Below, piece after piece: positions 22,320 through 53,700 of a stretch of 64,000 nucleotides of DNA (position 1 is the stretch's first letter; every line of letters begins with the position of its first letter). A model generated the notes under the pieces. It was given only the letters and a program-made list of their open reading frames with translations. It was not told the DNA's origin and made no database searches. Both the position numbers and the translations under genes were made by a program. Origin of the DNA: a virus (Duplodnaviria > Heunggongvirae > Uroviricota > Caudoviricetes); the IMG/VR virus record IMGVR_UViG_3300031576_000015, positions 29,996 through 93,995 of that record; one strand, given 5' to 3'.

Positions 22320-24536
22320 TTAGATCTCCCAGGTGGCCTGGAACATCTCCTCTTCCTTCATGCCCCGTGCCCAAGTTGTTACCTGCTTAGGCGTACGGTC
22401 AGGAGACGCTGTTGGCCGGCTTACCAATAGATAGCGTAGGGCGTCTAGTGCATGATCGTTGATCTTACGAGGCCTTTCCGGCTCGTTACGCCGGGACCGC
22501 CTAAGTGTGCTCAACTCGTCCCAGACATACTCCTTGAACTCCCGGATTAGGTTGGGTGCCATTCCAGATAGGATCTGGAGTTTGGGCCGGCCTGTGGTCG
22601 GGTCGAGCACGTTCAGGTACTTCTGGACAACGGCAATACCCGATCCTACGTCTCGTAAGGACTCGGCGACCGGAGCTTTCACGACAGGAACCCCGACCTC
22701 ATAGTACTGCTGGGCCGGGCTTTCTCCGGAGGTACCTTCCTTGTTGAACGCCGATGGGTCAATAAGGGAGTATTGGAACCGTTCTAGCGGTATCAGTTCC
22801 CCTGTCTTGTGATCCCTCATTGTGCGGCGCTTGCGAATCTCCTTGGCATGATCCATAGCCAAGGGGCCGGGCTGATAATACTCGTCGTAGATATAGACAG
22901 TACCGGTTGGGCTTATCGTTGCCCACAAGCAGACGGTAGGATTGCGGGTTCCATGATCGATAGTCCGATACCGGTGCCAGTATTCTGGTATCTCTCTTGT
23001 GAACTGACCATTGACCAGGACACCTGGGGAGAGATGCGTAGGAAGCAAATTGTAGACAAGACCGCCGGCTTCTTCCCAGGACCCGTAGTAGTGGCGTCTC
23101 TTCCACTCCTCCGGCATTGCCTCCATGTCAGCAATATAGTCCTCCGGCAGATTCTCTATGTTGTCTAAGGTGCTACCTTCGACCAGGACGTAGTCAGTGG
23201 GATCGAAGCCTGGTATCTTTCGGCGTCCAGAAGCTTCTTGCCCCTCCTGGGTGAAGAGCTGCCAGTACCAGTTGTGTCCTCGGTAGTTGGCTTCCAGAAA
23301 GGCGTATTGCCGGGGCAACGGGCCCCAGCGTCCCGACTGGCGGCGCAGGCGCTTCGTGAGCTCCTGCCAGTGTTCCTCAGTTATTCCGTCGTCATCTGCC
23401 TGGCTGATCCCGAAGAAGTTGAGGTTCTCACTGTTCTTGCTAGCATAGCCCCAGACCACATAATTGCCGGTTGTGGTCTCTAGAGCATAGACATCTTCTT
23501 CTCCATCTGGAGTAACCGAGACAATTTCTTCCTTACTCAGTGCTAACTTGCCCCGGCCGTCCAGAACTTCACGCAATCGTCCAGCTTTCGCGGGTCGGCA
23601 CAGTAATAGAAATCTGTGGATTCCGGCTATTCCGTCAGTAATTAAGTATTTGGTGCCTTCATCGCTATCCGACTTACTCCAGGAAAAGCCTAGCATGGCG
23701 AGGGCCAATTCGATTCGATCACAAACTTCGGGATTCGTCTTCCTATTCTGGAACAGTGATAGGGTAGTACCGTCCACATCCCGACGGACATTTCCCTCGC
23801 CGTCGAAGATTCCACCCAACCAAAGAGCAAGTTCATTCTGTTCTTCGGTAAGTGGAGTAATCAGTTTGGATACACGAGCCAAAACCAATCCGACTCGTGT
23901 TCTTCGATAATATGGGTCCTGGTCCATAGAGGGGGAATAGAGGGCTTTGAACCAGCGATGATCCGCTGTACAACGAATTATTTCGCCCGAGGTCAGTTGA
24001 ACCTTGACTATCGGCGCCCGAAGTTTGGCAACTGCTAGGATTGTTGCTGTGGTTGGTCTCCGGGTCTGCCCTTGGTTGCCTATATCAAAACCTATGATAT
24101 GGTCGCCGACCACTATCTGGTTGATTGGTTTATAGGACCAATCCGCCATAAGAATAGGGGCCTCCCCCGGATTACAACGGTACTTCCTGGGGTCTTCCAG
24201 GTTGCGGAAGAGGATGGTAGATGTCCCTTCCAACGTTGGGCCCGACCGTAGCTCTAGCACTCCCTCGCTTCTTCGCCACTTACGGATCAGACCCTGCGGC
24301 AGTATCTCAAAGAACTGCGGCACTAAGGTGTTGTTTAGTTCTGGATAGGTGTAACGGGCGAGGATCCCACGGGAGTCAGGGTACTTTGTTGCGATGGCGA
24401 TTGCGCGTCGACAGAAGGCGGACGTCTTTCCGCATCCCATTGTACCCACGTAGGCGGCATATCGCTTGCTAGTAGCGATGAATGCAGATTGCTTGGGATT
24501 CCACTTACGTTCGAACGTCTCAGTTTGTCGAGCCAT
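22320..24536 (-). CDS. terL: terminase large subunit carrying an intein
   Basis: 738-aa ORF; Walker A 'GTMGCGKTSA'; intein blocks A (C121), B 'GEIIRCTADHRWF', F 'DVYALETTTGNYVV', LAGLIDADG-like 'LWLGGIFDGEGNV'. Confidence 0.75.
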   Translation of the reverse strand: MARQTETFERKWNPKQSAFIATSKRYAAYVGTMGCGKTSAFCRRAIAIATKYPDSRGILARYTYPELNNTLVPQFFEILPQGLIRKWRRSEGVLELRSGPTLEGTSTILFRNLEDPRKYRCNPGEAPILMADWSYKPINQIVVGDHIIGFDIGNQGQTRRPTTATILAVAKLRAPIVKVQLTSGEIIRCTADHRWFKALYSPSMDQDPYYRRTRVGLVLARVSKLITPLTEEQNELALWLGGIFDGEGNVRRDVDGTTLSLFQNRKTNPEVCDRIELALAMLGFSWSKSDSDEGTKYLITDGIAGIHRFLLLCRPAKAGRLREVLDGRGKLALSKEEIVSVTPDGEEDVYALETTTGNYVVWGYASKNSENLNFFGISQADDDGITEEHWQELTKRLRRQSGRWGPLPRQYAFLEANYRGHNWYWQLFTQEGQEASGRRKIPGFDPTDYVLVEGSTLDNIENLPEDYIADMEAMPEEWKRRHYYGSWEEAGGLVYNLLPTHLSPGVLVNGQFTREIPEYWHRYRTIDHGTRNPTVCLWATISPTGTVYIYDEYYQPGPLAMDHAKEIRKRRTMRDHKTGELIPLERFQYSLIDPSAFNKEGTSGESPAQQYYEVGVPVVKAPVAESLRDVGSGIAVVQKYLNVLDPTTGRPKLQILSGMAPNLIREFKEYVWDELSTLRRSRRNEPERPRKINDHALDALRYLLVSRPTASPDRTPKQVTTWARGMKEEEMFQATWEI
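23433..24176 (-). mobile_element. intein with LAGLIDADG-type endonuclease domain inside terL (approximate boundaries, ~aa 121-368)
   Basis: Hint-domain blocks plus 'LGGIFDGEG'; terminase is ~250 aa longer than usual. Confidence 0.55.
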
Positions 24537-27839: not shown

Positions 27840-27877
27840 ATTGGCCCTATAAAGAAAGAAGGCCCGGTTGCCCGAGC

Positions 27878-28048
27878 CTTACCTGCGTCTAACGACCGCG
27901 ACCTCGATATCGAAGTCCCGGCCGTCTACACCATTAAAGTTGATGGCTGGTAGGTTCACCCGACCGCCGACCACTTCTATGGCGGCCGCATAGACCAAGA
28001 TCTGGCCTATGATTGCAAGTCCTCTAGCTAGTTTTGTCCAGAATCCCA
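27878..28048 (-). CDS. small membrane protein, holin or antiholin candidate (56 aa)
   Basis: ATG at 28048 with AAAGAGGTAAC RBS; hydrophobic 'LARGLAIIGQILVYAAAIEVVGG'; under 60 aa so absent from the ORF track. Confidence 0.45.
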
Positions 28049-28309: not shown

Positions 28310-28387
28310 TGGAGGGCCGTGAGGGACTCGAACCCTCAACCTGCTGATTAAAAGTCAGCTGCGCGTGCCTGTTGCGCCTCCGGCCCG
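28310..28387 (-). tRNA. tRNA-Lys (anticodon TTT), CCA encoded
   Basis: Cloverleaf: T-arm GAGGG-TTCGAGT-CCCTC, anticodon loop CTTTTAA. Confidence 0.8.
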
Positions 28388-28560
28388 TGTCGTTTGATGT
28401 GGCAGGGTTTACACCGAAGCATACACTTGTGTATCTCATTTTGGAACGCCTGCTCTGTGGCGCTCCATAACTTGCCAATCACAAAGAGCTTAGTATTTGA
28501 GTCCCTATGATCGAATTCAAGGTTTTCTGCCGATCGGCAATCCACACACTGCCCGCCCAA
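28348..28560 (-). CDS. HNH endonuclease
   Basis: 70-aa ORF with 'CxxC..EFDHRD..N..CKPCH'; C-terminal tail overlaps tRNA-Lys. Confidence 0.7.
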   Translation of the reverse strand: MGGQCVDCRSAENLEFDHRDSNTKLFVIGKLWSATEQAFQNEIHKCMLRCKPCHIKRHGPEAQQARAADF

Positions 28561-28675
28561 TGACTGAACTGCGGCCGCCCGGCGCTTGTGATATCGAGCT
28601 AACTGATATCGCCGATGGTACTTGTTGTGTTGTGTTCGGACCTCAATTTATGTGGCATTTACCACTCCTTGAGGA

Positions 28676-28750
28676 TGGCCCGCCCGGCAGGAATCGAACC
28701 TGCGCATCAGCCTTCGCAGGGCCGTGGTCTATCCACTAGCCTACGGGCGG
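28676..28750 (-). tRNA. tRNA-Arg (anticodon GCG)
   Basis: T-arm GCAGG-TTCGATT-CCTGC; anticodon loop CTGCGAA; perfect 7-bp acceptor starting C1-G72; D-stem has one mismatch. Confidence 0.6.
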
Positions 28751-29023
28751 TTTGGTGGAGGCGACGGGGTATGGCCCCGTGTCCGGGCGACCGTTGTAGA
28801 ACACCGTTCACACCGGCGGGCTCAAGTCGGTTGTACTCGCCCGCTTGGTTCACTTACGGCCTCTCCGTACCGACGGCCGCCGTAAGCCGGTCAACTGGTT
28901 CCCGTCGATCAACACGCCCCCGGGTTTCTGCGGAAGAGGAGTTACCTCTTCCGTGGCCGCAGTCGATGCTTCAGTTCGCGGAATAACCATCCTTACACGA
29001 ACCTTTGCGACTCCGCATATTAT
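28751..29023 (-). other. structured GC-rich non-coding spacer of unknown nature, ending ...GCCTCCACCA
   Basis: 273 nt between two tRNA genes; perfect hairpin GGAAGAGG-TAAC-CCTCTTCC; 3' end is acceptor/CCA-like but no T-loop. Confidence 0.3.
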
Positions 29024-29100
29024 TGGAGGATCCGGGGAGATTCGGACTCCCGACCTAAGCGTTAGGACCGCCTCGCTCTAGTCCACTGAGCTACGGACCC
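29024..29100 (-). tRNA. tRNA-Arg (anticodon CCT)
   Basis: T-arm GGGAG-TCCGAAT-CTCCC; anticodon loop GTCCTAA; CCA encoded. Confidence 0.7.
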
Positions 29101-29104
29101 TCGA

Positions 29105-29445
29105 TAGTGTGGAGGAGTAGACTGATACGCCGGGTTCTGTGTAGGCCCATCATCTGTCTGGGCCGACCGTTACCGTATCGGCTCACTGCGTCCAACCCGG
29201 GGATCAGCGGGCAGCCTCATCTCCCTCAGTTAGGACTTGCACCAGGTAGAGTTTACCGCGTTTCACTCCCCACTTAAGGGGCTCGTCTCTGTGGCACTTG
29301 TCGTCGCGTCACCGCGCCAGGCCGTTAGCCTGTACCCTGCCCTATGGAGCCCGGACGTTCCTCTGTCAGTTGGGTGGTGTCTGTAGCGCCGCCGAGGCGG
29401 CTCCCACTACTGTCCAGCGATGGGCTTGTCTACTCCTCCACCCTC
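29105..29445 (-). ncRNA. rnpB: RNase P RNA (bacterial type A-like)
   Basis: Exact P4 strands: rc(29337-29356)=GTCCGGGCTCCATAGGGCAG with rc(29346-29361)=GGAACGTCCGGGCTCC, and rc(29129-29140)=ACAGAACCCGGC; 14-bp P1 pairs 29428-29441 with 29109-29122. Confidence 0.85.
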
Positions 29446-29456
29446 TATTGTACCAT

Positions 29457-29484
29457 ATAAAGCTGGTTTTGCAAGTACCTAGGA
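29457..29484 (-). promoter_or_regulatory. sigma70-like promoter for rnpB (TTGCAA-N16-TACAAT)
   Basis: -35 at 29484-29479 and -10 at 29462-29457 on the minus strand; predicted start site falls at the P1 5' end. Confidence 0.55.
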
Positions 29485-29640
29485 ACCAACATAGTGCATA
29501 ACGACATGCGAGTCCGCTGCAAGTAGGTTTATCAGTACCAAGTGTTAGTGCTTGATTCGAGGATCGTTTTACACGGACGGGGGGCTGTAGACTAAGTACG
29601 GAACCGGCTAGAATCTTACTGTCTTTTATCATTTCACACA

Positions 29641-29859
29641 CTAAAAAACGAGCAAAGACTGATCTTCATCGTCTGCCCGTCTCTGATCATTCCCTTGGTC
29701 CTCAAGACGGGCGTACCAGCGTTCAAGCTTTCCCACGAGTGTAGACAGGTCTCCTGCTCCCCACCGTGAGACAACTCTGCTCCAGGTATTCGCCTTCCAG
29801 AGGCGCTCTACCTGGTCCCACCAGATAAACAATTCTATCTCAGTTGCCCGCATTGTCAA
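29641..29859 (-). CDS. hypothetical small protein
   Basis: 72-aa ORF; its start codon lies inside a promoter-like element, so its reality is doubtful. Confidence 0.3.
   Translation of the reverse strand: MTMRATEIELFIWWDQVERLWKANTWSRVVSRWGAGDLSTLVGKLERWYARLEDQGNDQRRADDEDQSLLVF
29832..29859 (-). promoter_or_regulatory. candidate promoter TTGACA-N16-TAGAAT
   Basis: On the minus strand directly downstream of tRNA-Arg(TCT); overlaps the ATG of ORF 29641-29859. Confidence 0.35.
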
Positions 29860-29862
29860 GTT

Positions 29863-29938
29863 TGGCCCGCCCAGGAGGATTCGAACCCCCGACTTACCGG
29901 GTAGAAACCGGTTGTTCTGTCCACTGAACTATGGGCGG
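29863..29938 (-). tRNA. tRNA-Arg (anticodon TCT)
   Basis: Full cloverleaf; anticodon loop TTTCTAC; CCA encoded. Confidence 0.8.
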
Positions 29939-29939
29939 A

Positions 29940-30015
29940 TGGTACCCGCAGGTGGAGTTGAACCACCAATCAACGGTTTATAAGACCGTCCCGATCACCG
30001 TATCGGCTTGCGGGT
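29940..30015 (-). tRNA. tRNA-Ile (anticodon TAT)
   Basis: T-loop TTCAACT; anticodon loop CTTATAA; perfect acceptor; CCA encoded. Confidence 0.7.
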
Positions 30016-30016
30016 A

Positions 30017-30104
30017 GAGTCCCGGTCGAGGGATTGAACCTCAGTGGCCACCGTACGAACGGCCGTCCCGCTGCTTGCGCACTTGGCGGGCATTACCCCG
30101 GGTA
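30017..30104 (-). tRNA. tRNA-like element, identity unresolved (possibly type II)
   Basis: Good T-arm TGAGG-TTCAATC-CCTCG, but the acceptor and anticodon arm could not be paired canonically. Confidence 0.3.
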
Positions 30105-30190
30105 TGGCGGAGAGTGTGGGATTCGAACCCACGGGGCTTGCGCCCACGCGCTTTCCAGACGCGCCCACTAGGCCGCTATGGGAACTCTCC
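30105..30190 (-). tRNA. tRNA-Ser (anticodon GGA), type II
   Basis: Anticodon loop CTGGAAA; long variable arm GGGCGCAAGCCC; CCA encoded. Confidence 0.75.
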
Positions 30191-30191
30191 A

Positions 30192-30265
30192 TGGTAGGCG
30201 ACCAGGGACTCGAACCCCGCCGAGCGGTGTGTAGGACCGCTGCACTACCCCTATGCTAGTCGCCT
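30192..30265 (-). tRNA. tRNA-Val (anticodon TAC)
   Basis: Anticodon stem GCGGT/ACCGC, loop CCTACAC; CCA encoded. Confidence 0.75.
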
Positions 30266-30266
30266 T

Positions 30267-30351
30267 TGGTACCGAAGGAGAGATTCGAACTCTCACGGGA
30301 CAAGCCCACCGGGTTTTGAGGCCGACGCGTCTGCCATTCCGCCACTTCGGC
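30267..30351 (-). tRNA. tRNA-Leu (anticodon CAA), type II
   Basis: Anticodon loop CTCAAAA; long variable arm; CCA encoded. Confidence 0.65.
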
Positions 30352-30352
30352 A

Positions 30353-30436
30353 TGGTGCTGACGGTGGGACTCGAACCCACACGGTATAACCACGGGCTTC
30401 TAAGGCCCGCGTGTCTGCCAATTCCACCACGTCAGC
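30353..30436 (-). tRNA. tRNA-Leu (anticodon TAG), type II
   Basis: Anticodon stem CGGGC/GCCCG, loop CTTAGAA; CCA encoded. Confidence 0.75.
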
Positions 30437-30511
30437 TGGTTGGGGAAGTGGGATTCGAACCCACGACCTCTGGCTTCCGACGCCAGCATGCTTCCTCTGC
30501 ACCATCCCCCA
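30437..30511 (-). tRNA. tRNA-Pro (anticodon CGG)
   Basis: Anticodon stem CTGGC/GCCAG, loop GTCGGAA; CCA encoded. Confidence 0.75.
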
Positions 30512-30512
30512 T

Positions 30513-30561
30513 TGGTGGACCGACTGGGACTCGAACCAAGGACTTCCTGACTGCCTAGTTA
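30513..30561 (-). tRNA. half-tRNA-like fragment (CCA, acceptor 3' strand and T-arm only)
   Basis: 49 nt 'tggtggaccga-ctggg-actcgaa-ccaag...' with no D or anticodon arm; same 'tggtggaccg' start as the adjacent tRNA-Ala. Confidence 0.3.
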
Positions 30562-30635
30562 TGGTGGACCGGATAGGAGTCGAACCTACATTCTTCGCCA
30601 TGCCATGGCGCTGCGTTCCCATTACGCCACCGGCC
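30562..30635 (-). tRNA. tRNA-Ala (anticodon GGC)
   Basis: Anticodon loop ATGGCAT; D-stem GCGT/ACGC; CCA encoded. Confidence 0.7.
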
Positions 30636-30878
30636 CACTCTTACAGACGATTTACCTATGATACTTTCAGCCGGTATGAGATAATCTTCCCCACCGGCTG
30701 TAAGAATATAAAGCAGATCAAAGTCTCCCGCCTGATATATTCTATGAGTATTTCTGCCGTAGGTCCGTAGTGGTACTTCGTAGCACCTGCCTACTTTATG
30801 AGACGTGTATTTGCATTGCACACGTTTCAAACGGCCATCCTGCTCAATCACTAAATCATATTTTGATCCATATAGCAT
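30636..30878 (-). CDS. hypothetical protein in an AT-rich island (possible small nuclease)
   Basis: ORF 30555-30878; 'GDFDLLYIL...GEDYLIP' is PD-(D/E)xK-like; composition differs from the flanks; the listed C-terminus reads through tRNA-Ala. Confidence 0.3.
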
Positions 30879-30952
30879 GACCTACAGCTATATTTCCTTT
30901 CGTGTTGCTATTCATGATGCTCTCCTTTTGGAGAGCCTGGCTGGCAGCTTCT

Positions 30953-31022
30953 ATGGCCTACAGAGATTCGAACTCTGCTTTCCAGCCGAACGGCTGGCGT
31001 TCTCCCACTGAACTATCGGCCC
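30953..31022 (-). tRNA. aberrant tRNA-like gene (possible pseudo-tRNA; Glu or Asn-like loop)
   Basis: Clean T-arm CAGAG-TTCGAAT-CTCTG and D-arm, but a 6-nt anticodon loop (CCAGC-CGTTCG-GCTGG) and two acceptor mismatches. Confidence 0.35.
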
Positions 31023-31023
31023 T

Positions 31024-31098
31024 TGGCTCCAAGGGTAGGATTCGAACCTACAACCAACCGGTTAACAGCCGGCCGCTCTACCGTTGAGCTACCTTGGA
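31024..31098 (-). tRNA. tRNA-Asn (anticodon GTT)
   Basis: Anticodon loop CTGTTAA; perfect acceptor; CCA encoded. Confidence 0.8.
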
Positions 31099-31099
31099 A

Positions 31100-31174
31100 T
31101 GGAGCGGAGAACGGGACTCGAACCCGCGACCTCGTCCTTGGCAAAGACGCGTTCTACCACTGAACTATCTCCGC
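31100..31174 (-). tRNA. tRNA-Gly (anticodon GCC)
   Basis: Anticodon loop TTGCCAA; perfect acceptor; CCA encoded. Confidence 0.8.
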
Positions 31175-31180
31175 ATGTTT

Positions 31181-31317
31181 GGTCTTCGCTGGACTCGAAC
31201 CAGCGTCTCCAGCTCTTGGGTGCTATTGCTCCGGCGTTACTAATAAATTGTTGCAACAATTCAATAGTGCTCCGGCATGACACCAGCTGGCGTCCTCGCC
31301 ATCTAGACGAGAAGACC
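31181..31317 (-). tRNA. tRNA gene interrupted by a ~64-nt insertion or intron in the anticodon arm; anticodon unresolved
   Basis: Perfect acceptor GGTCTTC/GAAGACC, D-arm, T-arm GCTGG-TTCGAGT-CCAGC and anticodon stem CCAGC/GCTGG separated by 71 nt containing the palindrome AATTGTTGCAACAATT. Confidence 0.5.
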
Positions 31318-31318
31318 T

Positions 31319-31394
31319 TGGTGAGCCCGAGAGGAATCGAACCTCCACTGAACCGTGTTTAAGACGGCTCCCTCTGCCCTTGGGGTACGGACTC
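31319..31394 (-). tRNA. tRNA with anticodon TAA (Leu UUA/UUG) but a short variable arm (type I)
   Basis: Anticodon loop CTTAAAC with stem GCCGT/ACGGT; 5-nt variable region; A73; CCA encoded. Confidence 0.55.
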
Positions 31395-31396
31395 AT

Positions 31397-31471
31397 GGTG
31401 GGCCAGGTAGGACTCGAACCTACGACCTCCTGCGTGTCGAGCAGGCGCCCTAACCACTGGGCGACTGGCCC
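31397..31471 (-). tRNA. tRNA-Val (anticodon GAC)
   Basis: Anticodon stem CCTGC/GCAGG, loop TCGACAC; perfect acceptor; CCA encoded. Confidence 0.8.
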
Positions 31472-31472
31472 T

Positions 31473-31546
31473 TGGAGCGGGTACCGAGACTCGAACCCGG
31501 TCCTCTTGCTTGGAAGGCAAGGGCACAACCCTTATGCAATACCCGC
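31473..31546 (-). tRNA. tRNA-Gly (anticodon TCC)
   Basis: Anticodon stem CTTGC/GCAAG, loop CTTCCAA; CCA encoded. Confidence 0.75.
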
Positions 31547-31547
31547 A

Positions 31548-31633
31548 TGGTGTCCGGAGAGGGACTCGAACCCTCACGATGATTAGTCACAGGCTTCTGA
31601 GGCCTGCGCGTCTGCCAATTCCGCCATCCAGAC
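31548..31633 (-). tRNA. tRNA-Leu (anticodon CAG), type II
   Basis: Anticodon stem CAGGC/GCCTG, loop CTCAGAA; long variable arm. Confidence 0.75.
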
Positions 31634-31711
31634 TGGGGTGACCGATGGGATTTGAACCCACGTTTACCTGGTTCACAGCCAGGCGCCTTAGACCACTAGG
31701 CCACGGCCACC
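31634..31711 (-). tRNA. tRNA-His (anticodon GTG) with encoded G-1
   Basis: Anticodon loop CTGTGAA; extra 5' G pairing with C73; CCA encoded. Confidence 0.8.
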
Positions 31712-31712
31712 A

Positions 31713-31797
31713 TGGTGTCGTCGGGGGGACTCGAACCCCCACGTCTGTTCAACACAAGGCTCTCGACCTTGCGCGTCTGCCATTTCGCCACGACGAC
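31713..31797 (-). tRNA. tRNA-Leu (anticodon GAG), type II
   Basis: Anticodon stem CAAGG/CCTTG, loop TCGAGAG; long variable arm. Confidence 0.65.
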
Positions 31798-31799
31798 AC

Positions 31800-32054
31800 T
31801 TACCTCTTATCGGTTGGACGATAGATTCCTTGCTTGATGTAACCCTGTACCATACTCTCGAGCCGCGAGATCAGCTCGCTGGGCTTCGATCCATGGATCA
31901 TGGCCGGCATCCAACCCGGTGATCGCTCGACAGTCCCACTGGGACGCTTGCGCACATTCCAGATTGGTATGACGACCTTGGTGATGAATCCGTAGATTCC
32001 GTATCCACTGTTGTACTGCGGGGTGATCTTGATCTCATGCCGAATCTTCGGCTT
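31800..32054 (-). CDS. hypothetical protein (84 aa)
   Basis: ATG at 32054 with GGAGGG RBS; the longer listed ORF start runs through tRNA genes. Confidence 0.45.
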   Translation of the reverse strand, partial: KPKIRHEIKITPQYNSGYGIYGFITKVVIPIWNVRKRPSGTVERSPGWMPAMIHGSKPSELISRLESMVQGYIKQGIYRPTDKR

Positions 32055-32075
32055 GCGCTCCATGATCACCCTCCG

Positions 32076-32127
32076 ATAAGGAGATGGTGGAGGCTCGGGA
32101 ATCGGACCCGATTCTTGGCGACCACGC
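32076..32127 (-). tRNA. half-tRNA-like element (CCA, acceptor and T-arm plus a short hairpin)
   Basis: 52 nt; T-arm TCGGG-TCCGATT-CCCGA; ends CCTCCACCA directly upstream of the RBS of gene 31800-32054. Confidence 0.3.
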
Positions 32128-32202
32128 TGCCCCCCCATGGTCGGGCCGGGCGGGATCGAACCGCCGACTTCATGCACCCCATGCATGCGTGCTACCGCTG
32201 CA
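32128..32202 (-). tRNA. tRNA-Pro (anticodon GGG)
   Basis: Anticodon stem CATGC/GCATG, loop ATGGGGT; perfect acceptor; CCA encoded. Confidence 0.8.
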
Positions 32203-32203
32203 C

Positions 32204-32277
32204 TACGGCCCGATGGTCAGGGAACGGGGATTCGAACCCCGGACACTAGCTCCCAAAGCTAGCGTGTTACCTCTACA
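32204..32277 (-). tRNA. tRNA-Pro (anticodon TGG)
   Basis: Anticodon stem CTAGC/GCTAG, loop TTTGGGA; perfect acceptor; CCA encoded. Confidence 0.8.
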
Positions 32278-32278
32278 C

Positions 32279-32354
32279 TATTCCCTGTTGGTACTGAGGG
32301 GTGGATTCGAACCACCGATCTTCCGGGTATGAACCGGTTGCTCTGACCACTGAG
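32279..32354 (-). tRNA. tRNA-Met elongator or tRNA-Ile2 (anticodon CAT)
   Basis: Anticodon loop TTCATAC; G1-U72; no initiator features. Confidence 0.65.
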
Positions 32355-32356
32355 CT

Positions 32357-32442
32357 ACCCCAGCATTGGCGGAAGGGAGGAGAGTCGAACTCCTATGCCC
32401 TTTCGGGCGCCCGTTTTCAAGACGGGACCGATACCGTTCCGG
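32357..32442 (-). tRNA. tRNA-Ser (anticodon TGA), type II
   Basis: Anticodon stem CCCGT/ACGGG, loop CTTGAAA; variable arm GCCCGAAAGGGC. Confidence 0.75.
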
Positions 32443-32443
32443 T

Positions 32444-32518
32444 CACCCTTCCATGGTAGCCCCAAGGGGAGTCGAACCCCTCTTCGCAGTTTGAAAGGCT
32501 GCTGTCCTCACCGATAGA
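32444..32518 (-). tRNA. tRNA-Glu (anticodon TTC)
   Basis: Anticodon loop CTTTCAA; one mismatch at 31:39; CCA encoded. Confidence 0.65.
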
Positions 32519-32519
32519 C

Positions 32520-32595
32520 GATGGGGCTGTGGTGGACCAGGTTGGAATCGAACCAACAACCTCCTGTTTATCAGACAGGCTGTCTTACCATTGGC
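32520..32595 (-). tRNA. tRNA-Ile (anticodon GAT)
   Basis: Anticodon stem CCTGT/ACAGG, loop CTGATAA; perfect acceptor; CCA encoded. Confidence 0.8.
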
Positions 32596-32596
32596 A

Positions 32597-32673
32597 TACT
32601 GGTCCATGGAGGGCCTCTGGGGACTCGAACCCCAAACCTGCTGTTTAAGAGACAGCTGCTCTAGCCTGTTGAG
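32597..32673 (-). tRNA. tRNA-Lys (anticodon CTT)
   Basis: Anticodon stem GCTGT/ACAGC, loop CTCTTAA; perfect acceptor; CCA encoded. Confidence 0.8.
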
Positions 32674-32675
32674 CT

Positions 32676-32745
32676 AGAGGCCCGATGGCAGATTGCCGAC
32701 GAATCGAACGCCGCTGCGTGGTTTTGGAGACCTCGCTGATCCCAG
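32676..32745 (-). tRNA. aberrant 70-nt tRNA-like gene (non-canonical D and anticodon arms)
   Basis: T-arm CGGCG-TTCGATT-CGTCG and 7-bp acceptor present, but the internal 35 nt fold as GATC-TGG-GATC plus an irregular arm. Confidence 0.3.
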
Positions 32746-32746
32746 A

Positions 32747-32820
32747 TCGCAACCTATGGCGGTCCCAAGGAGGATCGAACTCCCGACTCAGCCGTGACAG
32801 GGCCGTGTTTTGCCACTAAA
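32747..32820 (-). tRNA. tRNA-Asp (anticodon GTC)
   Basis: Anticodon loop CTGTCAC; D-stem GTTT/AAAC; perfect acceptor; CCA encoded. Confidence 0.75.
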
Positions 32821-32821
32821 C

Positions 32822-32897
32822 TATGGGACCATGGAACACCCGGAGGGAATCGAACCCCCGACCACTGCGTTCGAAGCGCAGCACTCTGTCCACTGAG
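32822..32897 (-). tRNA. tRNA-Arg (anticodon TCG)
   Basis: Anticodon stem CTGCG/CGCAG, loop CTTCGAA; CCA encoded. Confidence 0.8.
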
Positions 32898-32898
32898 T

Positions 32899-32973
32899 TA
32901 CGGGTGCATGGAGGCGGCGGAGGGATTCGAACCCCCGGATAGATGGTTTGCAGCCATCTGCCTTTCCTCTTGG
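32899..32973 (-). tRNA. tRNA-Cys (anticodon GCA)
   Basis: Anticodon stem GATGG/CCATC, loop CTGCAAA; CCA encoded. Confidence 0.8.
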
Positions 32974-32974
32974 C

Positions 32975-33049
32975 TACGCCGTCTTGGTGACCCTACGGAG
33001 AGTCGAACTCCGCTTTCCGCCTTGAGAGGGCGGTGTCCTGACCGATAGA
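32975..33049 (-). tRNA. tRNA-Glu (anticodon CTC)
   Basis: Anticodon stem CCGCC/GGCGG, loop CTCTCAA; CCA encoded. Confidence 0.75.
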
Positions 33050-33051
33050 CG

Positions 33052-33125
33052 ACAGGGTCGATGGTGGAGGGACGGGGAATCGAACCCCGAAGTCCTGCGT
33101 GCAAAGCAGGCAGTTGCCCATTAGC
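33052..33125 (-). tRNA. tRNA-Ala (anticodon TGC)
   Basis: Anticodon stem CCTGC/GCAGG, loop TTTGCAC; CCA encoded. Confidence 0.75.
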
Positions 33126-33126
33126 T

Positions 33127-33201
33127 TATCCCCCCATGGTGGATAGGGACGGAATCGAACCGCCGACGCCGGGCTCTTCAGACCCGCGCTCTACCCCTGA
33201 G
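33127..33201 (-). tRNA. tRNA-Phe (anticodon GAA)
   Basis: Anticodon loop CTGAAGA; perfect acceptor and D-stem; CCA encoded. Confidence 0.8.
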
Positions 33202-33292
33202 CTACCTATCCATGGAATGGCGACAGCGGGGCAACCAGCCCCACCCGCTTCACCGTCAGTCGGTCGTTACGCAACGCGGCTCAGTCGGCCCG

Positions 33293-33484
33293 TCAGCCAA
33301 CCTCAACGCCACGGCGGGCTTTTACCCGCACCCGGCCATCCACTGGTTTGTAGGGACCGAGACGTGCCACCCCGGTGGGGCAGCCGACCCTGCACCGGTA
33401 GCACTGCGGTACCTTCCGACAGTTAGCGACCTTCCCAGGCTTAGGAAGTGCCTTCCCCGCGTGAACAACGGGGGCCTCGGCCAT
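33293..33484 (-). CDS. possible leaderless small Cys-rich protein (CX5CX2CX3CP); may instead be a structured ncRNA
   Basis: ATG at 33484 sits ~+1 of a consensus promoter; 63 codons, GC-rich with many hairpins; no RBS. Confidence 0.3.
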   Translation of the reverse strand: MAEAPVVHAGKALPKPGKVANCRKVPQCYRCRVGCPTGVARLGPYKPVDGRVRVKARRGVEVG

Positions 33485-33487
33485 GCC

Positions 33488-33515
33488 GCCACATTTCATT
33501 ATAGCACACTACCAG
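33488..33515 (-). promoter_or_regulatory. near-consensus sigma70 promoter TTGACA-N16-TATAAT with extended TG
   Basis: -35 at 33515-33510 and -10 at 33493-33488 on the minus strand; drives the downstream tRNA run. Confidence 0.7.
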
Positions 33516-33532
33516 ATCTTGTCAAGTACCGC

Positions 33533-33620
33533 AGACTAAATTTGGCGGAGGGCCGGAGATTCGAACTCCGACGGGCAGACGCCCGACTACCGGCTTCGAA
33601 CCGGATACGTTGCCGTTCCG
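33533..33620 (-). tRNA. tRNA-Ser (anticodon CGA), type II
   Basis: Anticodon loop TTCGAAG; variable arm GGGCGTCTGCCC; CCA encoded. Confidence 0.7.
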
Positions 33621-33621
33621 T

Positions 33622-33716
33622 CAACCCTCCATGGCGATGAGAGTGGGATTCGAACCCACGGGCCAGGCTCATTGCCCAGCCACCCGCTTAGCAGGCGGGT
33701 GCTTTCGACCACTCAG
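33622..33716 (-). tRNA. tRNA-Ser (anticodon GCT), type II with 22-nt variable arm
   Basis: Anticodon stem CCCGC/GCGGG, loop CTGCTAA; CCA encoded. Confidence 0.75.
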
Positions 33717-33791
33717 CCATCTCACCTGGAGCCCTTGACGAGGATCGAACTCGTGACCTCCGCCTTACCAAGGCGACGCACTACCACTATG
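33717..33791 (-). tRNA. tRNA-Thr (anticodon GGT)
   Basis: Anticodon loop TTGGTAA; perfect acceptor; CCA encoded. Confidence 0.75.
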
Positions 33792-33792
33792 C

Positions 33793-33867
33793 TACAAGGG
33801 CCTGGAGCCGAAGAGCGGATTCGAACCGCCAACCTACACTTTACGAAAGTGCCGCGCTACCGTTGCG
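33793..33867 (-). tRNA. tRNA-Thr (anticodon CGT)
   Basis: Anticodon loop TTCGTAA; D-stem GCGC/GCGC; CCA encoded. Confidence 0.75.
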
Positions 33868-33868
33868 C

Positions 33869-33943
33869 CACTCCGGCATGGTTGCGGGGGCAGGAATCGC
33901 ACCTGCGACCTGCTGGGTATGAGCCAGCCGAGCTGCTACTGCT
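33869..33943 (-). tRNA. initiator tRNA-fMet (anticodon CAT)
   Basis: Acceptor CGCGGGG...CCCCGCA-A-CCA with C1:A72 mismatch, identical to the E. coli initiator acceptor; anticodon loop CTCATAC; T-loop TGCGATT. Confidence 0.7.
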
Positions 33944-33958
33944 CCACCCCGCGTGATG

Positions 33959-34045
33959 GTGTAGAGAATGGTGGGCAGGGTAGGACTCGAACCTACGAAG
34001 GCCCGAAGGCCGTGTGGTCTACAGCCACATGCAATAGCCGCTATG
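33959..34045 (-). tRNA. tRNA-Tyr (anticodon GTA), type II
   Basis: Anticodon stem TGTGG/CCACA, loop CTGTAGA; long variable arm; CCA encoded. Confidence 0.75.
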
Positions 34046-34430
34046 CGACCTGCCCTTTACGTTTCCGAGCTAAATCTAGAGAGTATTTTGCTGGGTCTTC
34101 TCGGCGCCGGCGCATTCGCATACGACGCCCTTCTTTCTCCGAAGACCATTTCTTCCACGGTTTACTAGACGCGCTTATATTACACTTAATGTGACTGTAA
34201 CTGATATTTTTTACATCAAAGAAGGCCGCTCTTGGGTCGTCCGCACCCTGCCACGGCGTCATGTGCTCTATAGAAAAATCTTCAATAGCATTTATTGGAT
34301 TTCCGCATTGGAAACATCGGTTCTCTCCAAGGCGACAAATCAAAGAGAACAGAATAGCCTTTCTCAATTTATTTGTGGCAGTACCATACGGCATGCCAAG
34401 CTGGTTTGCCTTTTTTGCATTATTACCCAT
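34041..34430 (-). CDS. HNH endonuclease
   Basis: 129-aa ORF with 'CFQCG..IEHMTPW..N..SHIKCN'; Lys/Arg-rich C-tail. Confidence 0.7.
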   Translation of the reverse strand: MGNNAKKANQLGMPYGTATNKLRKAILFSLICRLGENRCFQCGNPINAIEDFSIEHMTPWQGADDPRAAFFDVKNISYSHIKCNISASSKPWKKWSSEKEGRRMRMRRRREDPAKYSLDLARKRKGQVA

Positions 34431-34452
34431 CTCTGGCCTCCGCCATTGACGT

Positions 34453-34529
34453 GGAGCCGAGTACAGGATTCGAACCTGCTACCTGCCGCTTACAAGGCGG
34501 CCGCTCTACCCAGTTGAGCTAACCCGGCA
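34453..34529 (-). tRNA. tRNA-Thr (anticodon TGT)
   Basis: Anticodon stem GCCGC/GCGGC, loop CTTGTAA; CCA encoded. Confidence 0.8.
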
Positions 34530-34543
34530 AGTTTTACAACACA

Positions 34544-34825
34544 TTACGCAGTTGGTGCGTCACTCCGGCGGGAGGCTTTCTCACGCCTCCGGTGGCACGC
34601 CTCGCAGAGAACCACACACTTGTCTATCTCTGCTTGCAGCCTCTTCGAACCTACAAAATGCCGCTCGTGGGACGCGTTCCCGATAGTAAAGGACTTCTCC
34701 GTCCGGTCCAGGTGATGGAAGGTCAGGTTCGTCGTAGCCCCGCAGTCCTTACAGAAGACCCGGTTCTCGACAATCTGTGCCATCGCCTGGCGTTCCTTGA
34801 GACGGTTACGAGCCGCACCCTTCAT
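34544..34825 (-). CDS. HNH endonuclease
   Basis: 'CKDCG..FHHLD..N..CEACHRR'; start moved to M13 (34825) because the listed N-terminus overlaps tRNA-Gln. Confidence 0.7.
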   Translation of the reverse strand: MKGAARNRLKERQAMAQIVENRVFCKDCGATTNLTFHHLDRTEKSFTIGNASHERHFVGSKRLQAEIDKCVVLCEACHRRREKASRRSDAPTA

Positions 34826-34832
34826 ATCAGTT

Positions 34833-34906
34833 GGTTGGGGAGGAAGGAGTCGAACCCTCATTCACAGGTTCAAAGCCTGTTGTCCTGCCGTTAAACGACT
34901 CCCCAA
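34833..34906 (-). tRNA. tRNA-Gln (anticodon TTG)
   Basis: Anticodon stem ACAGG/CCTGT, loop CTTTGAA; perfect acceptor; CCA encoded. Confidence 0.75.
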
Positions 34907-34907
34907 T

Positions 34908-34980
34908 GGCTGCGAGACAAGGATTCGAACCTCGGCTTCAGGGTTCAGAGCCCTGCGTCCTACCACTAGACGATCCCGCA
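34908..34980 (-). tRNA. tRNA-Gln (anticodon CTG)
   Basis: Anticodon stem CAGGG/CCCTG, loop CTCTGAA; CCA encoded. Confidence 0.75.
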
Positions 34981-35015: not shown

Positions 35016-35043
35016 ATTATACCACACTTTTGGCGTTTGTCAA
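35016..35043 (-). promoter_or_regulatory. near-consensus sigma70 promoter TTGACA-N16-TATAAT with extended TG
   Basis: -35 at 35043-35038; -10 at 35021-35016, overlapping the def stop codon; preceded by a CCCCGAAAGGG hairpin. Confidence 0.7.
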
Positions 35044-53561: not shown

Positions 53562-53700
53562 GACCGCTCCGTAGACTCCGGTCTATCTTCGGTGGTAATA
53601 TCTATCGCCTAAGCCTAGCCGGGGAAAGGGCGAAGGGACGTAAGACCAGGGACGCCCACCGATGGGCCGTACACGGCTTCAAGGCACGTTCCGCGATGGA
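53434..53700 (+). pseudogene. frameshifted LAGLIDADG homing endonuclease remnant sharing Ku's MRSYWS start
   Basis: Frame 1: MRSYWSSLTEKEKLLWAAGFLEGEGNF...stop at 53572; frame 2 continues ...SIFGGNIYRLSLAGERAKG...(HE C-terminal 'GGxIY' region). Confidence 0.55.

What the first reader, a model, noticed from the sequence alone, without database searches (positions are those of the whole stretch)
29105..29484. Phage-encoded bacterial-type RNase P RNA (rnpB) with its own promoter inside the tRNA array
The minus strand between tRNA-Arg(CCT) and tRNA-Arg(TCT) carries the universally conserved RNase P RNA P4 helix strands. The strings GUCCGGGCUCCAUAGGGCAG / GGAACGUCCGGGCUCC and ACAGAACCCGGC match the E. 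coli M1 RNA P4 almost base for base. A 14-bp P1 helix closes the ~340-nt molecule. A TTGCAA-N16-TACAAT promoter places the predicted transcription start at the P1 5' end. RNase P RNA is a core cellular ribozyme, and I know of no established phage-encoded copy. Here it sits among ~45 tRNA genes, an initiator tRNA and peptide deformylase, which fits a virus supplying its own tRNA 5'-maturation activity.
Basis: partly seen in the sequence, partly recalled or inferred. Interest (0 to 1): 0.9.

Follow-up and report, generated by a model that had tools for sequence, protein, structure and literature searches.

The report
Phage-encoded RNase P ribozyme gene
A complete ~94-kb phage genome carries its own streamlined copy of the RNA enzyme RNase P, which cells use to trim transfer-RNA precursors, inside its 43-tRNA gene array; similar copies occur in other large phages, and I found no earlier report of a virus encoding this core ribozyme.

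Summary
Window 29441-29109 (minus strand) encodes a 333-nt bacterial type-A RNase P RNA (Rfam RF00010, 156 bits against a gathering score of 100, E 2e-48). P1, P2, the P4 and P6 pseudoknots, P18 and the L15 GGU motif are intact. P13/P14 are missing, P12 is a stub and P3 is enlarged. A TTGCAA-16-TGnTACAAT promoter puts the transcription start at P1.

The genome is viral. The window wraps the ends of a circularly closed ~93.9-kb contig that has terminase, portal, capsid and replication genes and no RnpA protein gene.

A second phage (terminase 79% identical) has the gene in the same slot. Of 68 helix pairs compared, 14 changed compensatorily and none broke.

At least 16 other viral contigs, up to 463 kb, carry RNase P RNAs inside tRNA arrays. 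They range from complete forms to 227-nt minimal forms below Rfam's threshold. None was found in GenBank phages, in plasmids or in the literature.

Most likely mechanism (inferred): the RNA pairs with host RnpA and cuts the phage's tightly packed, CCA-encoding tRNA precursors.

The parts
29447..29474 (-). Promoter of the RNase P RNA gene: -35 TTGCAA (29474-29469), 16-nt spacer, TG extended -10 (29455-29454), -10 TACAAT (29452-29447)
   Evidence: 9/12 match with TG. L001 has TGCTACACT at the same distance from P1 but no properly spaced -35.
29109..29441 (-). RNase P RNA (rnpB), 333 nt, bacterial type A with a reduced specificity domain
   Evidence: RF00010, 156.3 bits, E 1.9e-48; closing inverted repeat; MFE -137.8 kcal/mol, z -2.3; recovers P1, P8, P9, P12, P18; helix map.
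29428..29441 (-). P1, 5' strand (GUGGAGGAGUAGAC); pairs with 29122-29109
29109..29122 (-). P1, 3' strand (GUCUACUCCUCCAC)
29419..29425 (-). P2, 5' strand GCCCAUC; pairs with GAUGGGC at 29151-29145
   Evidence: 7 bp; one compensatory and one single-sided change in L001.
29364..29418 (-). Enlarged P3 (55 nt; 86 nt in L001) with a conserved 3' strand GCUACAGAYACCACCCAAC
   Evidence: folds; CAGU/ACUG in the window becomes CGGU/ACCG in L001.
29350..29358 (-). P4, 5' strand ACG(U)CCGGG with the bulged U at 29355; preceded by J3/4 AGGAA
   Evidence: The A-to-C variant pairs with the G in the 3' strand.
29127..29134 (-). P4, 3' strand CCCGGCGU, preceded by the conserved ACAGAA
29339..29342 (-). P6 pseudoknot, 5' strand GGGC; pairs with GCCC at 29212-29209 in the P17 loop
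   Evidence: GGGC/GCCC in the window becomes GAGC/GCUC in L001 (compensatory).
29244..29337 (-). Specificity domain: P7, P8, P9 (GUGA loop), P10/P11, J11/12 ACAGAGACGA, 4-bp P12 stub (29281-29268). P13/P14 are absent.
   Evidence: 43 model positions reduced to 1.
29190..29236 (-). P15-P16-P17 with the L15 internal loop; GGU at 29197-29195, the motif that pairs with the tRNA 3'-CCA in type-A enzymes
29162..29182 (-). P18 hairpin with GUAA tetraloop
   Evidence: three compensatory and two single-sided changes against L001.
29024..29100 (-). tRNA-Arg(CCT), 8 nt downstream of P1 with no terminator between; probably co-transcribed, so an RNase P cut at its 5' end would also make the ribozyme's 3' end
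   Evidence: no terminator until 27880-27859.
28310..34980 (-). Array of 43 tRNA genes, the presumed substrates: 42 encode 3'-CCA and 30 of 42 spacers are 0-2 nt
35016..35043 (-). Perfect TTGACA-16-TATAAT (+TG) promoter at the head of the tRNA array. A second perfect one lies at 33525-33498 and a third (TTGACA-16-TAGAAT) at 29859-29832.
27859..27880 (-). Terminator-like hairpin plus T-run, the first one downstream of rnpB and the last three tRNAs

Best explanation
Window 29441-29109 (minus strand) is a functional gene, carried by a phage, for the catalytic RNA subunit of bacterial-type RNase P.

Shown:
- It is a type-A RNase P RNA with an intact catalytic domain and a reduced specificity domain.
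- It lies in a circularly closed ~93.9-kb phage genome that has no RnpA gene.
- A related phage keeps it in the same slot, with compensatory base changes.
- Its neighbours are 43 tRNA genes that encode CCA and are mostly 0-2 nt apart.

Inferred:
- It is transcribed from its own extended -10 promoter, starting at P1, together with the downstream tRNA-Arg(CCT), tRNA-Arg(GCG) and tRNA-Lys(UUU).
- It assembles with the host's RnpA protein. The host is probably an actinobacterium.
- The holoenzyme cuts at the 5' end of every tRNA in the long phage precursors. Because the spacers are so short, each cut also frees the upstream tRNA with a trailer of 0-2 nt. RNase P would then be essentially the only endonuclease needed to dissect the array.
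- A cut at tRNA-Arg(CCT) would also trim the ribozyme's own 3' end.
- The benefit to the phage is extra tRNA-maturation capacity, independent of the host, for arrays driven by consensus promoters. This could add to a limiting pool of host RNase P RNA or replace one that is lost during infection.
For: Identity:
- RF00010 hit of 156.3 bits, E 1.9e-48.
- 98 of 118 highly conserved consensus positions from J3/4 onward are matched.
- P1 is recovered independently as an inverted repeat.
- P4 keeps its bulged U, and the P6 pseudoknot, P18 GNRA loop and L15 GGU are present.
- Fold z-score is -2.3.

Viral origin:
- Head and packaging genes lie 4.6 kb away; phage-type genes lie on the other side.
- The contig closes into a circle.
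- No bacterial rnpB in the sample is closer than about 75% over 230 nt.

Selection:
- L001 (terminase 79% identical) has rnpB between the same two tRNA-Arg genes in a 43-tRNA array, scoring 162 bits.
- Over 68 pairs in 13 helices: 46 unchanged, 7 changed on one side, 14 compensatory, none broken.

Expression:
- Promoter found; the extended -10 is conserved in L001.

Substrate logic:
- 42 of 43 tRNAs encode CCA; 30 of 42 spacers are 0-2 nt.

No protein subunit:
- None in Pfam or phmmer searches of the window, and none in the precomputed Pfam hits of the extra 20 kb.

Generality:
- RNase P RNAs inside tRNA arrays occur in at least 16 other viral contigs spanning 40-71% GC. Several have phage genes alongside.

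Baseline:
- T4 relies on the stable host rnpB transcript (PMC9697503).
Against: - There is no experimental evidence of transcription or cleavage.
- P13/P14 are absent, P12 is a stub and P5 has a U-U mismatch. These could weaken folding or substrate binding, although both phages share them. From memory, engineered and archaeal RNAs without these helices remain active.
- L001 lacks the L15 GGU even though its tRNAs encode CCA. CCA pairing is therefore not conserved within the lineage.
- The closest relatives that have tRNA arrays (L054, L059; terminase 58% identical) show no rnpB in the 10 kb retrieved. The gene is dispensable for this phage group.
- The host is unknown, so compatibility with its RnpA is assumed.
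- The helix registers were set by hand.
Confidence: 0.72

Rival explanations
1. The gene is a passenger or decaying relic. A host rnpB was captured together with tRNA genes and is no longer functional.
For: The specificity domain is eroded: no P13/P14 and only a P12 stub. P5 has a U-U mismatch. The gene is absent from the retrieved parts of the nearest tRNA-array relatives.
Against: Between two phages whose terminases are only 79% identical, there are 14 compensatory and 7 one-sided changes and no broken pair. The catalytic core is intact. An extended -10 is conserved at the right distance from P1. The same arrangement recurs in many unrelated viral contigs.
Confidence: 0.05
2. The RNA is a decoy or regulator and not an enzyme. 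It would bind and sequester host RnpA, or pre-tRNAs, to shut down host tRNA maturation or to time phage tRNA release.
For: The phage has no protein subunit of its own, so the RNA must compete for host RnpA. The specificity domain is weakened.
Against: The residues and helices needed only for catalysis are all kept: the P4 bulged U, J3/4, the ACAGAA of J18/2 and the P6 pseudoknot. A decoy would also block maturation of the phage's own 43 tRNAs.
Confidence: 0.07
3. The RNA is an active RNase P whose main selective value is counter-defence or autonomy. It would keep phage tRNA maturation going when host RNase P is lost, inhibited or degraded during infection or abortive-infection responses. It might work without the host protein or with an unrecognised phage protein.
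For: Array-embedded copies recur in large phages and shrink to 227-266 nt. A J11/12 variant is found only in the P13/P14-less phage copies, among 162 cores compared. The enlarged P3 has a conserved strand that could be a protein-binding site.
Against: No defence system that targets RNase P is known to me. No candidate phage protein partner was identified. During T4 infection the host rnpB transcript is stable. This reading overlaps with the main explanation and is not exclusive of it.
Confidence: 0.12
4. The locus is an artefact: host chromosome, a prophage flank or a chimeric assembly.
For: Many IMG/VR and GenBank 'phage' records with rnpB are exactly this. They carry canonical genes of 270-318 bits at contig ends or among housekeeping genes.
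Against: The contig closes into a circle at ~93.9 kb and was assembled in three sources. Phage genes lie on both sides. The same gene order is found in an independent metagenome (L001). The rnpB is divergent and embedded in the array on the array's strand.
Confidence: 0.02

Closest known systems
Bacterial type-A RNase P RNA (Rfam RF00010; E. coli M1 RNA, rnpB)
   Same: Same family by covariance model. Shared features: P1-P4 core with the bulged U in P4, J3/4 AGGAA, ACAGAA before the P4 3' strand, P6/P16/P17, P8/P9 with GNRA loops, P18 and the L15 GGU. The AACGUCC form of P4 is the actinobacterial variant.
   Different: It is encoded by a virus, inside a tRNA array. It lacks P13/P14, has a 4-bp P12, an enlarged P3 and a U-U mismatch in P5. 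Its J11/12 reads ACAGAGACGA. No rnpA gene accompanies it. It is at most ~75% identical to any bacterial copy sampled.
Organelle-encoded rnpB (mitochondria of yeasts and jakobids, some plastids). This comparison is from my own knowledge and was not tested here.
   Same: A small dependent genome encodes only the RNA subunit and relies on the 'host' for protein. The RNAs are structurally reduced. As I recall, yeast RPM1 lies between tRNA genes and is co-transcribed and processed with them, as proposed here.
   Different: Organellar genes are vertically inherited relics of an endosymbiont. The phage gene is an accessory gene that is patchy even among close relatives.
Extra RNase P RNA copies in Mycobacterium austroafricanum and M. 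sp. YC-RL4 (Behra et al. 2022, PMC9569102)
   Same: These are additional rnpB homologs in Actinomycetota with altered specificity domains and conserved catalytic residues. They were attributed to horizontal transfer, and an endonuclease gene lies between them.
   Different: They were reported in bacterial genomes and were not linked to a phage or a tRNA array. Their function was left open. I could not retrieve those loci to compare sequences.
Other translation-related RNAs carried by large phages: tRNA arrays, tmRNA, Ro60/Y RNA
   Same: The same genomic neighbourhood and the same logic, that is a phage supplementing the host's translation and RNA machinery. tmRNA co-occurs in L282, L208 and L211. 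Ro60/TROVE occurs in L030, L054 and L059. tmRNAs in huge phages are reported in PMC7162821.
   Different: Those RNAs are substrates, adaptors or rescue factors. This one is the processing enzyme itself, a universal ribozyme.
Naturally or artificially minimised RNase P RNAs (archaeal type A without P13/P14/P18, Pyrobaculum type T, engineered 'Micro P'). From my own knowledge.
   Same: Peripheral specificity-domain helices are lost while the catalytic core is kept. The 227-266-nt phage forms in other contigs resemble type T in lacking most of the S-domain.
   Different: The window RNA keeps P7-P11 and P18 and is clearly of bacterial type. The archaeal forms work with four or five proteins.

Membership tests
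Bacterial RNase P RNA class A (RF00010) | Covariance-model score at or above the curated gathering score | tested here: met
   156.3 bits against 100, E 1.9e-48. L001 scores 162 bits.
Bacterial RNase P RNA class A (RF00010) | P4 long-range helix with a bulged U, flanked by conserved J3/4 (AGGAA) and ACAGAA | tested here: met
   ACG(U)CCGGG at 29358-29350 pairs with CCCGGCGU at 29134-29127, giving 8 pairs. The C-G pair replaces the usual A-U.
Bacterial RNase P RNA class A (RF00010) | P1/P2 closing helices that join the 5' and 3' ends | tested here: met
   14-bp P1 (inverted repeat) and 7-bp P2, both with compensatory changes in L001.
Bacterial RNase P RNA class A (RF00010) | Conserved core nucleotides (regions CR-I to CR-V) | tested here: met
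   98 of 118 upper-case consensus positions are matched from J3/4 onward. The mismatches lie in P12 and L15, or are the compensated P4 pair.
Bacterial RNase P RNA class A (RF00010) | P6 pseudoknot with P16/P17 (a type-A feature) | tested here: met
   GGGC (29342-29339) pairs with GCCC (29212-29209). It covaries to GAGC/GCUC in L001.
Bacterial RNase P RNA class A (RF00010) | P13/P14 arm and a full-length P12 in the specificity domain | tested here: not met
   43 model positions are reduced to 1, and P12 is reduced to 4 bp. The same loss is seen in L001, L033 and L208. These helices are typical of the class but not needed for the chemistry, so I file the RNA as a reduced variant of the class.
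Bacterial RNase P RNA class A (RF00010) | P18 with GNRA loop, and an L15 GGU that pairs with the tRNA 3'-CCA | tested here: met
   P18 at 29182-29162 with a GUAA loop; GGU at 29197-29195. L001 keeps P18 but lacks GGU.
Bacterial RNase P RNA class A (RF00010) | Endonucleolytic 5' maturation of pre-tRNA, and binding of the RnpA protein | not testable with these tools
   This needs in vitro cleavage or complementation. No rnpA gene is present in the ~84 kb examined, and the remaining ~10 kb is almost filled by two long genes.
Virus-encoded gene (as opposed to host or prophage-flank DNA) | Lies within a complete viral genome, with viral hallmark genes on both sides | tested here: met
   Circular closure at ~93.9 kb. 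Terminase, portal, major head, scaffold and adaptor genes. Tail genes, PolA-primase, RecA and RuvC.
Virus-encoded gene (as opposed to host or prophage-flank DNA) | Conserved in related viruses at the same position | tested here: met
   L001 has it in the same slot between tRNA-Arg(TCT) and tRNA-Arg(CCT). Conservation is patchy beyond that.

The most novel reading that the evidence does not exclude
The window RNA belongs to a phage-specific clade of streamlined RNase P ribozymes that circulates among large phages of unrelated hosts. Its members lack P13/P14 and share the J11/12 variant ACAGRGACGA. Other phage lineages have shrunk the RNA further, to ~227 nt. These RNAs would act as an orthogonal, phage-controlled tRNA-maturation enzyme. 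They might work without the host protein or with an unrecognised phage partner. That would make the phage's tRNA supply independent of host RNase P and resistant to its loss or inhibition.
Probability: 0.25. Interest if true: 0.95.

Novelty: new variant of a known kind. Interest (0 to 1): 0.85.

Why it matters
RNase P RNA is one of the two universal ribozymes of cells. As far as I could find, it has been regarded as strictly cellular or organellar. Phages are known to bring tRNAs, tmRNA, aminoacyl-tRNA synthetases and ribosomal proteins, but to rely on the host enzyme to mature their tRNAs.

A phage-borne, selectively maintained RNase P RNA adds the processing enzyme itself to the list of translation functions that viruses carry. 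It recurs in many large phages.

It gives a natural series of progressively minimised bacterial-type ribozymes (333, 269, 243 and 227 nt) for structure-function work.

It raises testable questions about whether host RNase P limits phage tRNA arrays, and about compatibility between the RNA and host RnpA as a host-range factor.

It also exposes an annotation blind spot. Huge-phage studies annotated only tRNAs and tmRNAs, and the smallest forms fall below Rfam's threshold.

Tried and rejected
- Megablast of 24 kb of the window against GenBank phages found no match, so no cultured relative is available.
- The cmscan alignment of the 5' end places P1-P3 inside the enlarged P3. I rejected it in favour of the inverted repeat.
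- The MAFFT pairwise alignment misregistered P2, P15 and P18 and produced false 'broken' pairs. I replaced it with helices defined independently in each sequence.
- The metagenome scan used a lineage-specific 23-mer and returned only L001's own contig.
- The first genome-collection pattern found nothing. The shorter pattern gave only taxonomic affinity.
- Hits in GenBank 'phage' records were rejected as analogues. Microcystis phage MaAM05's match lies among fabI, engB, mtgA and glyS. Salmonella and Acinetobacter 'phage' records and faecal virome scaffolds have no tRNA arrays.
- The PLSDB 'plasmid' hits inspected were all chromosomal-type contexts.
- RnpA was searched for with Pfam (only the top 25 of 38 families were displayed). 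It was also searched with phmmer, using three RnpA sequences recalled from memory, against all six-frame ORFs. Nothing scored below E = 0.25.
- Terminase relatives L054, L055, L057 and L059 have no rnpB in the retrieved 10 kb.
- The type-B P4 motif gave two small contigs without tRNAs. I did not pursue them.
- I did not build my own covariance model. A ~330-position model would exceed the calibration limit.
- The promoter-driven stretch 29826-29476 shows no Rfam hit and no fold signal (z -0.7).
Full report
**1. Observation**

The minus strand between tRNA-Arg(TCT) (29938-29863) and tRNA-Arg(CCT) (29100-29024) matches the Rfam model for bacterial class-A RNase P RNA. The match scores 156.3 bits against a gathering score of 100, with E 1.9e-48.

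cmscan starts its alignment at 29404 because the P3 element is unusually long. The true ends are given by an inverted repeat found independently by the repeat tool: 29428-29444 against 29106-29122, 17 nt, 94% complementary, 305 nt apart. This is a perfect 14-bp P1 (29441-29428 with 29122-29109) closing a 333-nt RNA.

The promoter scan reports TTGCAA-16-TACAAT with an upstream TG at 29474-29447. It places the transcription start at the first bases of P1.

The thermodynamic fold recovers P1, P8, P9, P12 and P18. It is more stable than 99 of 100 shuffles (z -2.3).

**2. Anatomy**

I mapped the helices by homology to the model.

| Element | Window coordinates and sequence |
|---|---|
| P2 | GCCCAUC / GAUGGGC |
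| P3 | enlarged, 55 nt |
| J3/4 | AGGAA |
| P4 | ACG(U)CCGGG / CCCGGCGU, with the conserved bulged U; the 3' strand is preceded by ACAGAA |
| P5 | CUCC / GGUG, containing one U-U mismatch |
| P6 pseudoknot | GGGC in J5/7 with GCCC in the P17 loop |
| P7, P8, P9 | P9 has a GUGA loop |
| P10/P11 | present |
| P12 | 4-bp stub |
| P15-P17 | L15 strand reads CGGGUU, keeping the GGU that pairs with tRNA CCA ends |
| P18 | GUAA loop |

P13 and P14 are absent: 43 model positions are reduced to 1.

From J3/4 onward, 98 of the model's 118 highly conserved positions are matched. The mismatches sit in P12 and L15, or are the compensated A-U to C-G pair of P4.

The catalytic domain is therefore complete and the specificity domain is reduced.

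**3. Phage or host?**

The left flank holds a phage head and packaging module:
- terminase large subunit, 22320-24536
- P22/SU10-type portal, 19511-21607
- scaffold, 16127-17107
- major head protein, 14277-15434
- adaptor and internal virion protein

The right flank holds phage-type genes: peptide deformylase, ATP-dependent DNA ligase, a MoxR-type ATPase with a DUF2201/VWA protein, Ku, and nucleases.

The window's terminase occurs on a 94,014-bp contig assembled in three sources. Two window genes map to that contig with offsets of +42,770 and -51,103, which I confirmed by sequence matching. The difference is 93,873 bp, which is 94,014 minus 141, the assembler's k-mer overlap. The window therefore runs across the contig ends, and the genome closes into a circle of about 93.9 kb.

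The 20 kb outside the window adds tail genes, a 2,297-aa protein, a 1,418-aa UDG/PolA/primase-helicase protein, RecA, an RNaseH-like protein and RuvC.

The segment is not host chromosome.

**4. No protein subunit**

No ORF in the window matches Ribonuclease_P in the Pfam output shown. None resembles three RnpA sequences by phmmer. None of the called genes in the extra 20 kb has that Pfam family. The remaining ~10 kb is almost filled by the two long genes.

The RNA must therefore work with the host's RnpA, with an unrecognised partner, or alone.

**5. Conservation and covariation**

A terminase search of IMG/VR found L001, a 15-kb soil-type viral contig whose terminase is 79% identical. It has 43 tRNAs. 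An RNase P RNA of 162 bits sits in the same slot, between tRNA-Arg(TCT) and tRNA-Arg(CCT).

The two RNAs are 76% identical. L001 is about 110 nt longer. It has a longer P3, a long branched P12 and an extra hairpin before the P4 3' strand. It also lacks P13/P14.

I defined the helices independently in each sequence and compared 68 pairs in 13 helices.

| Outcome | Pairs |
|---|---|
| Identical | 46 |
| Differ on one side (G-C to G-U type) | 7 |
| Differ on both sides and still pair | 14 |
| Pair in one RNA but not the other | 0 |
| U-U mismatch in P5, shared by both | 1 |

The compensatory changes include:
- the P6 pseudoknot (GGGC/GCCC to GAGC/GCUC)
- P8 (2 pairs)
- P15 (2 pairs)
- P18 (3 pairs)
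- the base of P3 (CAGU/ACUG to CGGU/ACCG)

This is the pattern of an RNA under selection for its fold. The helix registers were set by hand, anchored on invariant flanking sequence.

L001 also has an extended -10 (TGCTACACT) 6-7 nt before P1, but no properly spaced -35.

The gene is not universal in the group. Two relatives with terminases 58% identical (L054, L059) have tRNA arrays and a Ro60 gene but no rnpB in the 10 kb retrieved. Two others have no tRNAs there.

**6. Origin**

The AACGUCC form of the P4 strand, with its compensating G, is almost confined to Actinomycetota. Among the genome-collection rows displayed, the hits were Streptomyces, Microbacterium, Actinomyces, Kitasatospora, Micrococcales and relatives, plus a single Vibrio.

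The capsid protein's only GenBank relatives, at 25-29% identity, are from Arthrobacter, Microbacterium and Cellulosimicrobium phages and two uncultured Caudoviricetes.

An actinobacterial host and source is therefore likely. No sampled bacterial rnpB is closer than about 75% over 230 nt, so this is not a recent capture.

**7. Substrates and mechanism**

- Of the 43 tRNA genes, 42 encode the 3'-CCA.
- 30 of the 42 spacers are 0-2 nt.
- The array is driven by consensus promoters, two of them perfect TTGACA-16-TATAAT with TG.

For most tRNAs the 5' leader is simply the CCA end of the preceding tRNA. One RNase P cut per junction would mature the downstream 5' end and release the upstream tRNA with almost no trailer.

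The ribozyme gene is followed after 8 nt by tRNA-Arg(CCT). No terminator appears before 27880-27859. It is probably co-transcribed with three tRNAs and has its 3' end made by an RNase P cut.

In other contigs the gene abuts tRNAs on both sides without a promoter of its own. In L051 the spacers are 0 and 2 nt.

I infer that the RNA joins host RnpA and adds tRNA-processing capacity for the phage's own arrays. The accepted picture so far is that phages use the host enzyme. In T4 infection the host rnpB transcript stays stable and is assumed to process T4 tRNAs (PMC9697503).

**8. Other examples**

A strict 5' P4 motif matched only 33 of 2.9 million IMG/VR contigs. Most are canonical genes of 270-318 bits, without tRNA arrays and often at contig ends. 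They look like host flanks.

Eight contigs have the gene inside a tRNA array:
- L001
- L026
- L028 and L033 (155-kb and 100-kb contigs)
- L030
- L037, L044 (369 kb) and L051 (114 kb)

A second scan used the 3' P4 strand. It was capped at 120 rows and filtered locally. With an E-value-mode Rfam search it added seven more contigs:
- L244 (162-kb contig; complete type A, 280 bits)
- L191 and L276 (no P18, 264 bits)
- L208 (463-kb contig; no P13/P14, 208 bits)
- L282 (243 nt, 85 bits)
- L207 and L289 (227 nt, 80 bits)
- L211 (266 nt, 65 bits)

The last three forms lack most of the specificity domain and fall below the gathering score.

These contigs span 40-71% GC. Some carry phage genes beside the array:
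- Mu-type portal: L026, L191
- Ro60 and DNA ligase: L030
- PHROG families: L207, L211

Among 162 non-redundant RNase P cores in hand, the J11/12 variant ACAG[A/U/G]GACGA occurs only in the five P13/P14-less phage copies: window, L001, L030, L033 and L208. These are also each other's nearest neighbours. This hints at a phage-specific clade. The bacterial sample is biased toward Actinomycetota, so convergence is not excluded.

**9. What is known**

Eight full-text searches found no report of a phage- or virus-encoded RNase P RNA. The huge-phage survey annotated tRNAs with tRNAscan and tmRNAs with ARAGORN and does not mention RNase P.

The nearest precedent is a note that M. austroafricanum and M. 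sp. YC-RL4 have two extra RNase P RNA homologs. These have altered specificity domains and were attributed to horizontal transfer, with function unknown (PMC9569102).

GenBank phage records and PLSDB plasmids gave no true analogue.

Papers in subscription journals are not covered by the search, so priority cannot be excluded.

**10. Verdict**

The observation and the interpretation hold. This is a selectively maintained, promoter-equipped, structurally reduced type-A RNase P RNA gene in a complete phage genome. It is one member of a wider set of array-embedded phage RNase P RNAs that appears to be undescribed.

Catalytic activity, use of host RnpA and the benefit to the phage are inferred, not shown.

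Noticed in passing
L207:4368-4594(-), L289:8569-8795(+), L282:5635-5877(+), L211:3884-4149(-), L030:5399-5667(-): Very small RNase P-like RNAs (227-269 nt) sit inside the tRNA arrays of other viral contigs. They lack most of the specificity domain and P18. Three of the forms score below Rfam's gathering score (80, 85 and 65 bits), so routine annotation would miss them.
   Followed up: partly
window 50423-52271 (+): ABC-transporter-like genes lie inside the phage genome: a permease (BPD_transp_1, 50423-51376) and an NMT1/THI5-like substrate-binding protein (51369-52271). They sit between phage-type genes and may be an auxiliary metabolic module.
   Followed up: partly
window 22320-24536 (-): The terminase large subunit is 738 aa, while its closest relatives are 479-511 aa and cover only about half of it. 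Weaker hits are to intein-bearing proteins (Intein_splicing, LAGLIDADG_3). The terminase probably carries an intein.
   Followed up: no
window 29476-29826 (-): A strong promoter (TTGACA-16-TAGAAT, 29859-29832) directly after tRNA-Arg(TCT) drives about 350 nt. This stretch has no tRNA, no Rfam hit, no convincing ORF and no fold signal (z -0.7). It is absent from L001. A T-run lies near 29650.
   Followed up: partly
window 28387-28675 and 28751-29023 (-); also other gaps of 144-396 nt in the array: The last three tRNAs are separated by unexplained inserts of 273-289 nt, while in L001 the same three tRNAs are contiguous. Other long gaps in the array hold small ORFs of 105-129 aa or internal promoters.
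   Followed up: no
window 30952-31023 (-): A tRNA-like gene with an abnormal anticodon loop (ARAGORN reports '???'; Rfam tRNA score 38.9 bits). It is the only one of the 43 that does not end in CCA.
   Followed up: no
window 32686-32765 and 32757-32830 (-): tRNA-Trp is called as 80 nt with its anticodon at position 39, and it overlaps tRNA-Asp by 9 nt. This is either a miscall or an unusual or interrupted tRNA.
   Followed up: no
window 51104-51244: This 141-nt stretch corresponds to both ends of the 94,014-bp ENA contig k141_3047314. It is the circular-closure overlap, so the window is a rotated version of that assembly.
   Followed up: yes
window 40627-41469 (+) and 53662-54546 (+): The phage encodes an ATP-dependent DNA ligase and a Ku homolog, a two-component end-joining pair. 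From my own knowledge, this pair is known from some actinobacteriophages.
   Followed up: no
L054:4833-6467, L059:4681-6321, L030:389-1867: Ro60/TROVE genes lie next to the tRNA arrays of related and unrelated phages. tmRNA genes lie in L282, L208 and L211. Several RNA-quality-control or translation RNAs and proteins cluster with these arrays.
   Followed up: no
L060 (MW495066.1 111323-119478): The GenBank record 'Microcystis phage MaAM05' (274 kb) contains an unannotated RNase P RNA-like stretch among bacterial housekeeping genes (fabI, engB, mtgA, glyS). Part of the record may be host DNA.
   Followed up: partly
L001:6139-6170: L001's L15 region (CCCUAAAUGAGC) lacks the GGU motif that the window RNA keeps, although L001's tRNAs also encode CCA. 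Substrate 3'-end recognition may differ within the lineage.
   Followed up: partly
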